From positions 33,880-97,879 of the forward strand of contig DAICYC010000001.1 of NCBI GenBank assembly GCA_027311865.1: a DNA stretch of 64,000 nt. Reading direction: 5' to 3'. Position numbers and translations under genes: made by a program. The stretch comes from Candidatus Saccharimonadota bacterium. Its GTDB lineage: Bacteria > Patescibacteriota > Saccharimonadia > Saccharimonadales > Saccharimonadaceae. The notes under the pieces were generated by a model. That model was not told where the DNA came from, searched no databases, and saw only the letters and a program-made list of their open reading frames with translations. Positions 55,786-59,037 of this stretch are shown here, in pieces (position 1 is the stretch's first letter; every line of letters starts with the position of its first letter).

Positions 55786-56499
55786 ATGAACGATTACGAT
55801 GTGCGACCTGCACTCGAGAACATGTTCAATCAGGTGATTGAGTTCCTGCCACAGCTTCTGGCAGCAATTGCCATACTTGTCATTGGTTATTTAATATCAG
55901 CCGGTATCGCCCGACTAATTCGGCGCGGCCTAAAGAAAGTTCGCTTCGATCGAGCGCTACACAGCTCTCCGGCCGGAGGCGTTATCTCGCACCTAGTCGA
56001 GAGCCCAACCCAGTTTGCCGGTAAGCTGTCGTTCTGGCTAATCTTCTTTGCTTTCATATCGATGGCCGTAGCAGTCCTCGATATTGAGCTATTAAACGAG
56101 CTGTTGGCAGCCGTTTACGCCTACGTTCCTAATATAATCGCGGCGATTGTTATCTTCCTGATAGCAAGTGCTGTTGCGACAGCTGTCCCACGGATGGTTC
56201 AGCGAGCCATGGGCCGAACCGCCATGGCCAAGACCGTCTCGACGGCCGTACCAATAATTATCATGAGCTTAGCTGGCTTTATGATTCTCAACCAGCTTGG
56301 TGTCGCTCGTGATATCGTCAATATCTTATTCACAGCTATCGTCGGTGCCACCGCCTTGGGTATGGCCCTGGCCTTTGGTCTCGGTGGTCGCGATGCGGCA
56401 AAGCGAGCTCTCGACCAAGCCGTCGATTCAGCCCGCGCTAACTCCGGCAAGCTCAGTCCTGACATCCGCACGCCAAAGCGCTCCAAGACCGACTTATAG
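55786..56499 (+). CDS. Conserved TM-helix repeat protein (mechanosensitive-channel N-terminal-like)
   Basis: GGAAGGAG SD. Repeated TM modules of the type LPQLLAAIAILVIGYLISAGIARLIRRGL. Confidence 0.55.
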   Translation: MNDYDVRPALENMFNQVIEFLPQLLAAIAILVIGYLISAGIARLIRRGLKKVRFDRALHSSPAGGVISHLVESPTQFAGKLSFWLIFFAFISMAVAVLDIELLNELLAAVYAYVPNIIAAIVIFLIASAVATAVPRMVQRAMGRTAMAKTVSTAVPIIIMSLAGFMILNQLGVARDIVNILFTAIVGATALGMALAFGLGGRDAAKRALDQAVDSARANSGKLSPDIRTPKRSKTDL

Positions 56500-56560
56500 A
56501 TAAACCGGTCAAATAAAAATACCACCTTCGAAGCAGAGGTGGTATTTGTTTGTCTTCTAG

Positions 56561-57325
56561 CTACGGCTGAAGTGTGCCAGCAAATACCTGCCAGGCAAGC
56601 AGTGACTTGGCGACCAGACTCAAAATAATATAAACGAACTCACCGTACAGATAATCTTTCCACGGACCAACTTTCTTGTACTGTAGCATCATGTTGATAG
56701 CGAAACAGTTAAAGAATACGAAGATAGACACAAAGATCCAGTAAACGAAGTCGGGTGCCTTGCTACCTTGATCGGCCCCGAGCCACATATAGAACGCTAT
56801 CGCCACCCACGGGAGGATTCCAGCGATACAACCGACCCAGTAACTTAGCCAGTTGGTGCGTCGAGTTGTCTGATTGTGAACCTCCATAACTAGACCCATC
56901 AGGTTCATAATGGCCGTCAAGCCAAAAATCATCACCAAGCTCATCAAATCATAGATGCCGACTAGTAGTGAAATCGCCACCATCATAACGCTTGCCGAAA
57001 CTGAATATTCGATCCAACGAGCCCGGTTGATACCGTCCTTCAAACCAGCTTCATAACGTTTACGATAGTAAGTCGCCACACTGAAATGGGCGATTGACGA
57101 CAACAAGAAGAAACCGGTCACCAAGAGCGGCAACGAAACTTCAAACAGCGTGGTCGTAGCTGGTTCCAGCGACTGCGTCTGAGTGTTAAACTTCAGAAAA
57201 TTCCCGATAACCGGGAATAACGATTCTTTACTGAGAATCAAGATAGCGACGGCTTGCGCTAAATGTAAAAATCCAGCGATGATATTGTAGCGGTGAAGCT
57301 TGTTAACCGTAAGTTTTTTAGTCAT
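56561..57325 (-). CDS. Heliorhodopsin
   Basis: Seven TM helices. RWIEYSVSASVMM, GCIAGILPW and LSLVAKSLLAWQVFAGTL (candidate Schiff-base Lys) match the HeR-48C12 sequence as I remember it. Confidence 0.85.
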   Translation of the reverse strand: MTKKLTVNKLHRYNIIAGFLHLAQAVAILILSKESLFPVIGNFLKFNTQTQSLEPATTTLFEVSLPLLVTGFFLLSSIAHFSVATYYRKRYEAGLKDGINRARWIEYSVSASVMMVAISLLVGIYDLMSLVMIFGLTAIMNLMGLVMEVHNQTTRRTNWLSYWVGCIAGILPWVAIAFYMWLGADQGSKAPDFVYWIFVSIFVFFNCFAINMMLQYKKVGPWKDYLYGEFVYIILSLVAKSLLAWQVFAGTLQP

Positions 57326-57364
57326 AGTGTCATCATAACGCACGATGACAGCTTCGACCAGTCG

Positions 57365-58339
57365 CTAAATATCCCAACTCCTGCCAGCAATACCGAAATG
57401 GCCATCGCGAGCAGTGGACTGGTAGACTGGCCGTTCAAGGTCTAGGTAGTCGATAATACCCCGCGGCGACAAATCATAACCTTCAATATTGATATCCCGA
57501 CCATCGACGACGGCGACTGCCTGAACGGGCTGATCATAGCCAATTGCATAAGCCAGCGTCACCACTACCTCCTCGGCATCGAATCGTCGTAGATAATCAA
57601 TCGCGATTCGGCGGGCCATATAGGCGGCTGATCGATCGACCTTGCTTGGGTCTTTGCCGCTAAAAGCGCCCCCGCCGACCGCCACGGCCGGCCCATAATT
57701 ATCAATCGCCAGCTTCCGACCGGTCAAACCAGCGTCAGCTTCAAAGCCGCCAATTGACCAGTCGCCGGCTGGATTGATGTGAAGTGTCGGCGCCTTAGTA
57801 CAACGACCGAGCGAGATTTGATTTCTCAACCAGTCGTGGACAGCGGCTGTTAAGTCGTCCGTCGAAGCATTTTGAAAACTAGCTACCACTGAGTGAATTA
57901 GTCCGTCACTGGTCGTAATTTGAGTTTTGCCGTCGAACGGCCAACGCTGATACAAAAACCGGTTCAAATCGCGAGCCAAAACTATTTCGAGCGGCAGCAG
58001 TTCCGTCGTTTCCGAGCAGGCATAGCCAACCATTATTCCCTGATCGCCAGCGCCGCCCTGATCAACGCCTCGAGCAATTTCGGCACTTTGATGAGCTAAC
58101 CGAACGACGACTTCAACCGGACCAGCGATTTGCTTAACAATGGCACTGACGTCAACTTCGGTCTTAGCGCTAATCTCACCGGTTACAAAAACGGCTCCGT
58201 GGCCACCGGCGACATCGACCGCCACCCGCGCTGTCGGATCTTCGGATAAGTAGGCGTCCAAGATGGCATCCGATATTTGATCGCACAGCTTATCCGGGTG
58301 CTTCGGTGAAACGTATTCGGCGGTTTTAAATTTTGTCAT
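57365..58339 (-). CDS. metK: S-adenosylmethionine synthetase (compact form)
   Basis: HPDKLCDQISDAILDA, GAGDQGIMVGYA and GGGAFSGKDPSKVDRSAAYMAR. Start at the ATG after AAGGAG; the longer ORF runs through the riboswitch. Confidence 0.92.
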   Translation of the reverse strand: MTKFKTAEYVSPKHPDKLCDQISDAILDAYLSEDPTARVAVDVAGGHGAVFVTGEISAKTEVDVSAIVKQIAGPVEVVVRLAHQSAEIARGVDQGGAGDQGIMVGYACSETTELLPLEIVLARDLNRFLYQRWPFDGKTQITTSDGLIHSVVASFQNASTDDLTAAVHDWLRNQISLGRCTKAPTLHINPAGDWSIGGFEADAGLTGRKLAIDNYGPAVAVGGGAFSGKDPSKVDRSAAYMARRIAIDYLRRFDAEEVVVTLAYAIGYDQPVQAVAVVDGRDINIEGYDLSPRGIIDYLDLERPVYQSTARDGHFGIAGRSWDI

Positions 58340-58497
58340 AAAAAATACTCCTTGTCGTATCTTTCCGCCCGATAGAAAAGATAAAGGAGTTAAAAATCTT
58401 ATCTTTCCCATATGGGCTAGAAGTGGCACCGTAGTGAAAAACACTGGTTGCCGGCAGGTCGTCGAGCTAGTTCTCTCGCTGCACTCTGGATACGCTT
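58340..58497 (-). promoter_or_regulatory. SAM-I (S-box) riboswitch with a terminator / SD-sequestering expression platform
   Basis: Minus strand reads TATCCAGAGTGCAGCGAGAGAACTAGCTCGACGACCTGCCGGCAACCAGTGTTTTTCACTACGGTGCCACTTCTAGCCCATATGGGAAAGATAAG. This is followed by the hairpin ACTCCTT...AAGGAGT plus TTTTTT, ending at the ATG. Confidence 0.8.
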
Positions 58498-58548: not shown

Positions 58549-59037
58549 ATGAAATTACCGCAGAAAGAATATCTTCAGAGTGCTATGTTTGGCTTTAACG
58601 ATGCCCTAGTATCAACTACCGGTGTTATCGTCGGCGTCAGCGCTGGTACTGGTAACAAAGAAGTCGTACTGTTGGCTGGTGCAGTGACGATTCTCGTCGA
58701 GGCCCTCTCGATGGGCTCAGGTCAATATCTTAGCTCCAAGTCAGCCCATCAACTCGACCGATCGGACGCCAGTCGGATTCCGTTGATAAGTGGCTTAATC
58801 ATGTTCGGCTCTTATTTCTTAGCCGGACTAGTTCCTTTACTGGCAATTATTTTCACACCAGTCGAACATGGCCGGAGTGTCGCCATCATAGCAGCACTCG
58901 CCTGCCTGCTCGTCTTAGGTTACGTCAAAGGAAAAATTGTCCAAGTTTCACCGCTGCGCAGCGCCGTGGAGGTCCTTGTCATCGGTGGCGCCGCCACGAT
59001 TATTGGTATCGTCGTTGGACAAATCTTCGCGATTTAA
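58549..59037 (+). CDS. VIT1/CCC1 family metal (Fe/Mn) transporter, membrane domain only
   Basis: GFNDALVSTTGVIVGVSAG ... LSMGSGQYLSSKS blocks and C-terminal TM helices. Confidence 0.7.
   Translation: MKLPQKEYLQSAMFGFNDALVSTTGVIVGVSAGTGNKEVVLLAGAVTILVEALSMGSGQYLSSKSAHQLDRSDASRIPLISGLIMFGSYFLAGLVPLLAIIFTPVEHGRSVAIIAALACLLVLGYVKGKIVQVSPLRSAVEVLVIGGAATIIGIVVGQIFAI

What the first reader, a model, noticed from the sequence alone, without database searches (positions are those of the whole stretch)
56561..57343. Heliorhodopsin gene adjacent to metK
The 254-aa product has seven TM helices. Blocks of it match the founding heliorhodopsin 48C12 nearly residue for residue, as I remember that sequence:
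- NRIAGxxHLxQ-like N-terminus (YNIIAGFLHLAQAVAIL);
- RWIEYSVSASVMM;
- WVGCIAGILPW;
- GEFVYIILSLVAKSLLAWQVFAGTLQP, containing the retinal-binding Lys.

No carotenoid or retinal biosynthesis gene (crtEBIY, blh) is visible in this window. If the genome lacks them, the chromophore would have to be scavenged.

The function of heliorhodopsins is still unresolved. A copy in a reduced, pilus-bearing genome is a useful comparative data point.
Basis: partly seen in the sequence, partly recalled or inferred. Interest (0 to 1): 0.6.

Follow-up and report, generated by a model that had tools for sequence, protein, structure and literature searches.

The report
Canonical heliorhodopsin in a Saccharibacteria genome
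The gene is a genuine, intact heliorhodopsin (a light-sensing membrane protein) in a tiny Saccharibacteria genome that cannot make its own retinal pigment; both facts are already published for this bacterial group, and the neighbouring metK gene is a lineage-specific accident rather than a conserved partner.

Summary
Observation confirmed. Window 56561-57325 (-) encodes a 254-aa heliorhodopsin (HeR). It matches Pfam PF18761 over its full length (E 1e-98) and the NCBIfam HeR equivalog (334 bits, cut-off 100). It is 52% identical to TaHeR (TM 0.89) and 40% to 48C12. All 15 Schiff-base/H-bond-network residues are present, and K240 lies in TM7.

The host is a 0.64-Mb Saccharibacteria MAG, 92% complete. 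I found no blh, CCD, crtB, crtI, polyprenyl synthase or type-1 rhodopsin. None of 61 relatives has blh or CCD over cut-off, yet 32 have HeR. Retinal must therefore be scavenged, as published for Saccharibacteria type-1 rhodopsins. HeRs in Saccharimonadia are also published. This scan has noted Saccharibacteria HeRs on other DNA many times.

The metK adjacency is real: independent metagenomes bridge it. It is not conserved. No other locus of about 170 related ones shows it; the nearest cases are 1.2 kb and 9.6 kb apart.

New but minor points:
- metK sits behind a SAM-I riboswitch, with no terminator before HeR.
- HeR keeps a -10 hexamer at the position where 58-69% of relatives carry a leaderless-type extended -10 promoter.
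- Glutamine synthetase and photolyase, two proven HeR partners, were not found.

Verdict: an ordinary new member of a known kind.

The parts
56561..57325 (-). Heliorhodopsin CDS, 254 aa with stop. Key residues in 254-aa numbering: N14, H21, Q24, S76, H80, Y91, R103, E106 (counterion), Y107, S110, E148, E229, S236, K240 (Schiff-base Lys, TM7), W245.
57326..57364 (-). 39-nt metK-HeR spacer. It has no SD-like motif and no intrinsic terminator. A -10-like hexamer TATGAT sits at 57337..57332 (-12..-7 from the ATG), the position of the leaderless-type extended -10 promoter of related HeR genes. It lacks the TG extension (CG instead). A hairpin, GUCAUCGUG/UAUGAUGAC, has no U-run.
56517..56547 (.). 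Hairpin terminator directly after the HeR stop, shared with the convergent + strand gene. On the - strand it is followed by UUUUUAUUU.
   Evidence: -15.3 kcal/mol.
57365..58339 (-). metK (SAM synthetase), 324 aa and compact. All three Pfam SAM-synthetase domains are present. TIGR01034 scores 261.7 bits, below the equivalog cut-off of 309.4.
58396..58496 (-). SAM-I (S-box) riboswitch aptamer in the metK leader.
   Evidence: RF00162, 63.3 bits against a gathering score of 44.4. It is conserved upstream of metK in 13 of 20 genus loci.
58347..58390 (-). Riboswitch expression-platform hairpin. Its 3' arm holds the metK SD (AAGGAG) and is followed by UAUUUUUU, so it could act as terminator and SD sequestrator.
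   Evidence: -16.3 kcal/mol, z -3.5.

Best explanation
This is an intact, canonical heliorhodopsin of a free-standing (non-fused) type.

Shown here:
- The sequence, the predicted 7-TM fold with the family's extracellular beta-hairpin, and an N-in/C-out charge bias.
- Every residue of the 48C12 Schiff-base and proton-relay network.
- The absence of a retinal or carotenoid pathway from the genome and from relatives.

Inferred:
- The apoprotein binds all-trans retinal taken from a host or neighbour cell, at K240, with E106 as counterion.
- On illumination it runs the slow, non-pumping HeR photocycle and passes a conformational signal through its basic cytoplasmic loops to a partner protein encoded elsewhere. 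Candidates present in this genome are five HisKA histidine kinases and an ABC exporter.
- The gene is most likely expressed from its own weak leaderless-type promoter in the 39-nt spacer. Read-through from the SAM-riboswitch-controlled metK is a possible second source of transcript.
- The metK adjacency is a by-product of gene loss and rearrangement in a variable region, not a functional coupling.
For: Family membership:
- PF18761 full length, E 1.1e-98; NF038020 equivalog, 334.5 bits.
- PDB: TaHeR E 7.8e-79, 48C12 E 4.4e-56.
- AF2 model: pLDDT 85, pTM 0.82, seven helices plus a beta-hairpin at 36-64.
- Foldseek: TaHeR TM 0.89 at 52% identity. Type-1 rhodopsins reach only TM 0.53-0.66 at 8-17% identity.

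Photochemistry residues:
- All 15 network residues listed for 48C12 in PMC9726877 are present.
- They are invariant or nearly so in 30 relatives.
- The SxxxK motif is S236..K240, in TM7.

Topology:
- K+R is 10 on the N-terminal side against 3 on the other side.

No chromophore pathway:
- No blh, CCD, crtB, crtI, polyprenyl synthase or type-1 rhodopsin in the genome.
- blh 0/61 and CCD 0/61 over cut-off among relatives, while HeR is in 32/61.
- This matches PMC9296517.

metK adjacency is incidental:
- No metK within 6 kb of HeR in 80 genome loci.
- None within 1.5 kb in 11 relatives.
- One of 80 metagenome loci has metK 1.2 kb away, with two intervening genes.
- In G017 the two genes are 9.6 kb apart.
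- No neighbour is conserved; the commonest is in 11 of 80 loci.

Own promoter:
- TGnTANNNT ends exactly at -7 from the ATG in 58 of 100 unique related upstream regions, and TANNNT in 69. SD-like motifs occur in only 17.
- The window has TATGAT at that same position.

Partners:
- GS and photolyase were not found.
- Five HisKA and six response-regulator genes are present.
- An ABC exporter 31% identical to the HeR-linked ABC of relatives is present.
Against: - Retinal binding, the photocycle and any partner are untested. No RNA data exist for this organism.
- The promoter is degenerate: CG instead of TG at -15/-14, and a weak -35 (TGGTCG). The closest relative, G017, lacks the -7 arrangement. 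Dependence on metK read-through therefore cannot be excluded.
- There is no terminator between metK and HeR.
- The genome is 92% complete, so absences are strong but not absolute.
- The runs that hold this DNA are mine drainage, sludge and freshwater, and these habitats are not obviously all sunlit.
Confidence: 0.7

Rival explanations
1. Functional metK-HeR operon. HeR is co-transcribed with metK under the SAM-I riboswitch. By analogy with AbHeR-glutamine synthetase, HeR-photolyase and OcHeR-OmrDE, it binds MetK and modulates SAM synthetase in the light.
For: - The two genes share a strand, with a 39-nt gap and no terminator. The only terminator follows HeR.
- The riboswitch platform looks like a transcription terminator, so it would also gate downstream genes.
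- The junction is bridged in independent metagenomes X2 and X5.
- All three experimentally proven bacterial HeR partners are encoded next to HeR in an operon (PMC9529153, PMC11109279).
- metK and HeR are loosely linked in two relatives, at 1.2 kb and 9.6 kb.
Against: - Direct adjacency was found in none of about 170 other related loci.
- SAM synthetase is not among the ten recurrent HeR neighbour groups of PMC11109279.
- No paper in the library links HeR and riboswitch.
- HeR has no SD and keeps a -10 hexamer at the leaderless position. A hairpin abuts the AUG on any read-through RNA.
- 8 of 40 genus genomes gave no metK match, and 4 of these carry HeR (G010, G022, G027, G031).
Confidence: 0.07
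2. The protein has a light-independent or chromophore-free role in this organism. Retinal is rarely available, and the protein is kept for another membrane function.
For: - Retinal auxotrophy.
- Holder runs include sludge and mine drainage.
- HeR is patchy in the genus (11/36), with decayed copies in G011, G022, G007 and G016.
- Earlier unchecked notes of this scan report lysine-less HeRs kept in other Saccharibacteria. These are a lead only.
Against: All 15 photochemistry and proton-relay residues, including K240, E106, H21 and H80, are retained here. They are invariant or nearly so across 30 relatives at 59-80% identity. That is not expected if light chemistry were dispensable in this clade.
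Confidence: 0.13
3. A light-gated ion or proton transporter, like the viral HeR V2HeR3, rather than a sensor or regulator.
For: Viral HeRs can transport protons (cited in PMC11109279 and PMC12873467). The genome has no type-1 pump.
Against: - Bacterial HeRs tested so far lack pumping activity (PMC11109279 introduction).
- The protein is 52% identical to non-pumping TaHeR and keeps its network residues.
Confidence: 0.04
4. Mis-binned or chimeric contig: the HeR belongs to another organism, for example an actinobacterium.
For: HeRs are common in Actinobacteria, and several related loci sit in MAGs with other taxon labels.
Against: - The 80 closest genome loci are overwhelmingly Saccharibacteria MAGs at 59-83% identity.
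- GC is uniform across the window.
- Long contigs of the likely source run and independent runs cover both flanks and the junction.
- 48C12 is only 40% identical.
Confidence: 0.01

Closest known systems
TaHeR, heliorhodopsin of Thermoplasmatales archaeon SG8-52-1 (PDB 6is6, 7u55, 7clj)
   Same: - Closest solved structure: 52% identity, TM 0.87-0.90, E 7.8e-79.
- Same length class, beta-hairpin ECL1, counterion Glu, two His and SxxxK.
- Its host also lacks retinal synthesis, and it takes up retinal quickly through an opening in the apoprotein (as cited in PMC9296517).
   Different: - The source label is archaeal, whereas this protein is from a Saccharibacteria bacterium.
- The lateral opening was not examined in my model.
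HeR 48C12 (founding heliorhodopsin; PDB 6su3, 6su4, 6uh3, 9ljj)
   Same: All 15 Schiff-base/H-bond-network residues map one to one: N16, H23, Q26, S76, H80, Y92, R104, E107, Y108, S111, E149, E230, S237, K241, W246.
   Different: Only 40% identical overall, TM 0.81-0.83.
Published Saccharimonadia/CPR heliorhodopsins (Chiriac et al. 2022, PMC9166423; Bulzu et al. 2021, PMC8612252)
   Same: Same family and taxon. Eighty HeRs were reported in Saccharimonadia, with a proposed sensory role tied to oxidative-stress mitigation. Public relatives include a RAAC3_TM7_1 protein at 75% identity and an NCBI 'heliorhodopsin HeR [Candidatus Saccharibacteria bacterium]' at 73%.
   Different: This particular protein differs by 20% or more from every other cluster listed. 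It sits in a unique metK context.
Saccharibacteria type-1 rhodopsins (SacR) using host-derived retinal (Jaffe et al. 2022, PMC9296517)
   Same: Same phylum and the same retinal auxotrophy (no blh), with scavenging proposed from Actinobacteria hosts.
   Different: SacRs are outward proton pumps of the type-1 family. This genome has no type-1 rhodopsin, and HeRs do not pump.
HeR-partner operons: AbHeR-glutamine synthetase (PMC9529153), HeR-photolyase, OcHeR-OmrDE ABC exporter (PMC11109279)
   Same: - HeR lies just downstream of an enzyme gene on the same strand with a short gap.
- The cytoplasmic loops are rich in Arg/Lys, the feature reported as important for partner binding.
- Some relatives have ABC-ABC-HeR on one strand, as in the OmrDE arrangement.
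   Different: - The neighbour here is metK, which is not one of the ten recurrent groups.
- The adjacency is not conserved.
- GS and photolyase were not found in this genome.

Membership tests
Heliorhodopsin (Pfam PF18761 / NCBIfam NF038020) | Full-length match to the curated family models above their cut-offs | tested here: met
   PF18761: 329.9 bits against 26.7, profile 1-242 of 242. NF038020 equivalog: 334.5 bits against 100.
Heliorhodopsin (Pfam PF18761 / NCBIfam NF038020) | Seven TM helices with the retinal Lys in TM7, in an SxxxK motif (criterion used in PMC8612252 and PMC9166423) | tested here: met
   The AF2 model has helices at 7-31, 65-84, 101-122, 127-154, 159-186, 192-217 and 225-251. 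S236-L-V-A-K240 lies in TM7. K240 aligns with K241 of 48C12.
Heliorhodopsin (Pfam PF18761 / NCBIfam NF038020) | Glu counterion in TM3 and the His/His proton-relay pair | tested here: met
   E106 aligns with E107, H21 with H23, and H80 with H80. Roles are as described in PMC9726877. E106 and H80 are invariant in 30 relatives; H21 is in 28 of 30.
Heliorhodopsin (Pfam PF18761 / NCBIfam NF038020) | Inverted topology (N-terminus cytoplasmic, C-terminus outside) | tested here: met
   Prediction only. K+R is 10 in the N-terminus and even loops against 3 on the other side. Not verified experimentally.
Heliorhodopsin (Pfam PF18761 / NCBIfam NF038020) | Fold closer to solved HeRs than to type-1 rhodopsins | tested here: met
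   HeRs score TM 0.81-0.90 at 39-52% identity. Type-1 rhodopsins score TM 0.53-0.66 at 8-17%.
Heliorhodopsin (Pfam PF18761 / NCBIfam NF038020) | Binds all-trans retinal, absorbs in the visible range, and has a slow photocycle without ion pumping | not testable with these tools
   Needs heterologous expression and spectroscopy.
HeR-partner operon (as for GS, photolyase, ABC exporter) | Same strand, short gap, no intervening terminator | tested here: met
   39-nt gap with no terminator.
HeR-partner operon (as for GS, photolyase, ABC exporter) | Recurrent adjacency of the same partner gene across HeR-bearing genomes | tested here: not met
   metK is adjacent to HeR in 0 of 11, 0 of 80 and 0 of 80 related loci. 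The nearest cases are 1.2 kb (L128) and 9.6 kb (G017).
HeR-partner operon (as for GS, photolyase, ABC exporter) | Single transcript covering both genes | not testable with these tools
   No RNA run holds this DNA. A -10 hexamer at the leaderless position argues for a separate start.
SAM-I riboswitch (Rfam RF00162) | Covariance-model match above the gathering score, upstream of a SAM-related gene, with an expression platform | tested here: met
   63.3 bits against 44.4, full model. The platform hairpin scores -16.3 kcal/mol, z -3.5, with the SD in its 3' arm and a U-run after it. The match is conserved in 13 of 20 genus metK loci.

The most novel reading that the evidence does not exclude
In this lineage a deletion has placed heliorhodopsin directly behind a SAM-riboswitch-controlled metK. 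HeR expression would then follow cellular SAM status, and HeR might bind MetK and modulate it in the light. That would be a fourth class of HeR-regulated partner, linking light to methyl-donor supply in an ultra-reduced symbiont.
Probability: 0.05. Interest if true: 0.7.

Novelty: new member of a known kind. Interest (0 to 1): 0.27.

Why it matters
Heliorhodopsin function is still only partly understood, and minimal genomes narrow the list of possible partners. Here the genome appears to lack two of the three experimentally shown partners, glutamine synthetase and photolyase. It retains histidine kinases and an ABC exporter. That makes it a reasonable background for partner hunting.

The main claims, however, are already in the literature: HeRs in Saccharibacteria and retinal scavenging. 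The metK link is not conserved. The finding therefore adds a well-characterised example rather than a new principle. The leaderless, extended -10 promoter signature shared by most Saccharibacteria HeR genes appears undescribed in the papers I searched, but it is a small regulatory detail.

Tried and rejected
- **Type-1 rhodopsin in the genome.** The only PF01036 hit (16.7 bits, C8) is the TM part of a 291-aa ORF that I read by eye as an HtpX-type protease (HEMGH motif; no family search run). I rejected it.
- **Conserved neighbour of HeR.** I clustered ORFs around 80 related loci. The commonest neighbours are a cupin (11/80), VKOR (7/80) and an ABC exporter (6/80). None is conserved.
- **Simple deletion between metK and HeR relative to G017.** The 9.6 kb between them in G017 shares no genes with the window, and most of those genes are absent from G000. 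This is a variable region, not a clean deletion.
- **VIT1 or the MscS-like neighbour conserved next to metK in the genus.** Not found.
- **Expression evidence.** No RNA holder was listed for this DNA. Only DNA contigs could be laid.
- **The look-up of encoding contigs.** The context of the closest protein clusters (P0004, P0006, P0012) could not be read that way, so I used the search for related loci on metagenome contigs instead.
- **My own crude terminator scan after metK in relatives.** It was insensitive, missing even the HeR terminator, so I drew no conclusion from it.
- **Consensus promoter scan.** It found only hexamer pairs inside metK (57727-57698, 57562-57533) or inside the HeR coding region. 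These are uninformative.
- **Literature link between heliorhodopsin and riboswitch.** Zero papers.
- **Unpublished genome.** Genus and relative counts include one unpublished genome, G029 (no HeR, metK present).

Full report
**1. The observation**

The minus-strand ORF 56561..57343 exists. From its GTG it is 260 codons. Several results favour that start:
- Relatives align from residue 1 of the 254-aa form.
- The closest relative has an open frame of exactly 254 codons.
- The public protein collection holds the 254-aa form (P0001).

**2. Identity**

The protein matches Pfam Heliorhodopsin PF18761 end to end (E 1.1e-98). It also matches the NCBIfam equivalog NF038020 (334.5 bits, cut-off 100).

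Among solved structures the best match is TaHeR (6is6, E 7.8e-79), followed by 48C12 (6su3, E 4.4e-56).

An AlphaFold2 model built on 30 relatives has pLDDT 85 and pTM 0.82. It shows seven helices, plus the beta-hairpin between TM1 and TM2 and the short cytoplasmic helix seen in HeR structures.

Foldseek results:

| Target | TM-score | Identity |
|---|---|---|
| TaHeR | 0.87-0.90 | 52% |
| 48C12 | 0.81-0.83 | about 40% |
| Type-1 rhodopsins | 0.53-0.66 | 8-17% |

I took the residue numbering from the HMMER alignment to chain 9ljj_A, whose numbering puts Glu at 107 and Lys at 241 as in 48C12. On that basis, all fifteen residues that PMC9726877 lists for the Schiff base and its H-bond network are present: N14, H21, Q24, S76, H80, Y91, R103, E106, Y107, S110, E148, E229, S236, K240 and W245. 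They are invariant or nearly so in 30 relatives at 59-80% identity.

K240 lies in TM7 (225-251) within SxxxK. Loop charges (K+R 10 against 3) fit the inverted, N-in topology.

**3. The organism**

The window is part of a 639,119-bp, 29-contig genome that is 92% complete. The 80 closest HeR loci in species-representative genomes are almost all Saccharibacteria/Saccharimonadales MAGs.

DNA nearly identical to this stretch occurs in three kinds of metagenome:
- mine drainage, which is probably the source;
- sludge;
- freshwater (only a fifth of the sampled words; the laid pieces differ by a few letters).

**4. The chromophore**

The genome gave no hit for any of the following:
- BCD/blh
- SQS_PSY
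- RPE65/CCD
- Amino_oxidase
- polyprenyl synthase
- lycopene cyclase

The only type-1 rhodopsin 'hit' is in a 291-aa ORF that looks like an HtpX protease by eye.

Across 61 relatives, blh and CCD are over cut-off in none, while HeR is present in 32 (21 of 25 genera). Retinal auxotrophy is thus lineage-wide and not an assembly gap.

This is the situation published for Saccharibacteria type-1 rhodopsins. That paper notes that TaHeR likewise takes up external retinal rapidly (PMC9296517).

**5. The metK context**

A SAM-I riboswitch (RF00162, 63.3 bits) lies at 58496-58396. metK therefore starts at 58339. The riboswitch platform is a -16.3 kcal/mol hairpin. It holds the SD in its 3' arm and is followed by a U-run.

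metK ends at 57365 and HeR starts 39 nt later. No terminator lies between them, and a clear one follows HeR.

The junction is not an assembly artefact. Contigs from two other runs bridge it: X2 at 57230-57411 with no differences, and X5 at 57263-57413.

The riboswitch-metK unit is conserved in the genus (13 of 20 loci). HeR next to it is not:
- None of 11 relatives has metK within 1.5 kb of HeR.
- None of 80 genome loci has it within 6 kb.
- Only one of 80 metagenome loci (L128) has it, 1.2 kb away. A tRNA-editing-domain gene and an opposite-strand DUF488 gene lie between.
- In the closest genome, G017, the two genes are 9.6 kb apart. The intervening genes are unrelated to anything in the window.

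No other neighbour of HeR is conserved either.

**6. How HeR is probably expressed**

I examined 100 non-identical upstream regions of related HeR genes:
- TGnTANNNT ends exactly 7 nt before the ATG in 58.
- TANNNT ends there in 69.
- Only 17 have an SD-like motif.

An extended -10 element at that distance puts the transcription start on the A of the ATG. This is a leaderless mRNA.

In this genome only 21 of 609 long ORFs show that arrangement (control offset: 3), and about half have an SD-like motif. The signature is therefore characteristic of the HeR gene rather than of the genome.

The window keeps TATGAT at -12..-7. It has CG instead of TG before it and a poor -35. It has no SD. G017 has moved its promoter 24 nt upstream.

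My reading is that the gene retains a weakened own promoter. Read-through from metK may add transcripts, but an SD-less internal AUG preceded by a hairpin would be translated poorly. This step is inference, and only 5'-end mapping can settle it.

**7. Function**

The literature read here describes bacterial HeRs as non-pumping, slow-cycling photoreceptors. They regulate partner proteins: glutamine synthetase, photolyase and the ABC exporter OmrDE (PMC9529153, PMC11109279). They may also act as sensory switches linked to histidine kinases and oxidative-stress responses (PMC8612252, PMC9166423).

In this genome:
- Glutamine synthetase and photolyase were not found.
- Five HisKA kinases and six response regulators exist, all on other contigs.
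- One ABC exporter, 31% identical to the HeR-adjacent ABC pair of some relatives, is on C24.

The most likely mechanism is a retinal-scavenging light sensor that signals through its Arg/Lys-rich cytoplasmic loops to a partner in trans. MetK is a low-probability candidate, suggested by position only.

**8. Novelty**

HeRs in Saccharimonadia have been reported (80 occurrences, PMC9166423). Retinal scavenging by Saccharibacteria is published (PMC9296517). Thousands of relatives exist: 7,750 proteins at E <= 1e-20, and the top 120 are 70-80% identical.

Earlier notes of this scan list 133 findings on Saccharibacteria HeRs in at least 125 genomes. The more unusual of these are lysine-less variants. 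The present protein is the canonical form.

I file it as a new member of a known kind, with two small additions: the unique riboswitch-metK juxtaposition and the leaderless-promoter signature of the clade.

**9. Limits**

- There are no RNA data.
- Absences rest on a 92%-complete MAG, supported by relatives.
- Counts over the genus include one unpublished genome, G029. No claim depends on it.

Noticed in passing
L015-L094 and L126-L205, 40 nt upstream of each HeR start; window 57332-57337: Most Saccharibacteria HeR genes carry an extended -10 element (consensus TTATGnTATArT) that ends exactly 7 nt before the ATG, and no SD. This implies leaderless mRNAs (58-69 of 100 unique loci). Genome-wide in G000 the arrangement is rare: 21 of 609 ORFs against 3 at a control offset.
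   Followed up: partly
window 57365-58339 (-): MetK is compact (324 aa). It scores below the TIGR01034 equivalog cut-off (261.7 against 309.4 bits), and its N-terminal Pfam domain is matched only over 3-70 of 99. Eight of 40 genus genomes gave no metK match with this query.
   Followed up: no
G011:C26:15285-15990, G022:C57:10738-11356, G007:C12:1735-1791, G016:C3:5316-5453: Relatives in the same genus hold split, stop-containing or fragmentary HeR matches. HeR is present in only 11 of 36 genus genomes. This suggests ongoing loss of the gene.
   Followed up: no
L020 (ABC, ABC, HeR on one strand); L023, L024, L068: Some Saccharibacteria relatives have a pair of ABC_membrane+ABC_tran exporter genes directly upstream of HeR on the same strand. 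This resembles the OmrDE-OcHeR operon of PMC11109279. A cupin (11/80) and a VKOR-family gene (7/80, divergent) are the other recurrent neighbours.
   Followed up: partly
L050, L058, L084, L075/L076/L090, L015 (record titles): Contigs carrying Saccharibacteria-type HeRs (62-78% identical) sit in MAGs labelled Burkholderiaceae, Dormiibacterota, Conexibacteraceae, Berkelbacteria or Parcubacteria. These are probably mis-binned or mislabelled. They could create false reports of HeR in diderms.
   Followed up: no
order-level relatives G041, G042, G044-G049, G054, G056, G060: A second class of much more divergent HeR-family matches (E 1e-28 to 1e-48) has longer open frames (263-352 aa). It occurs in other families of the order. 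These may correspond to the tailed or lysine-less variants noted earlier by this scan. I did not examine them here.
   Followed up: no
window 55786-56499 (+) and 58549-59037 (+): HeR and metK are flanked by a convergent membrane protein with two MS_channel_1st_1 repeats and by a divergent VIT1-family (iron/manganese transporter-like) gene. Neither is linked to HeR or metK in relatives.
   Followed up: partly
PDB 6is6 versus this protein: The 'Thermoplasmatales archaeon' HeR (TaHeR) is 52% identical to this Saccharibacteria HeR but only distantly related to actinobacterial 48C12. This points to inter-domain transfer or an origin of that contig worth re-checking.
   Followed up: no
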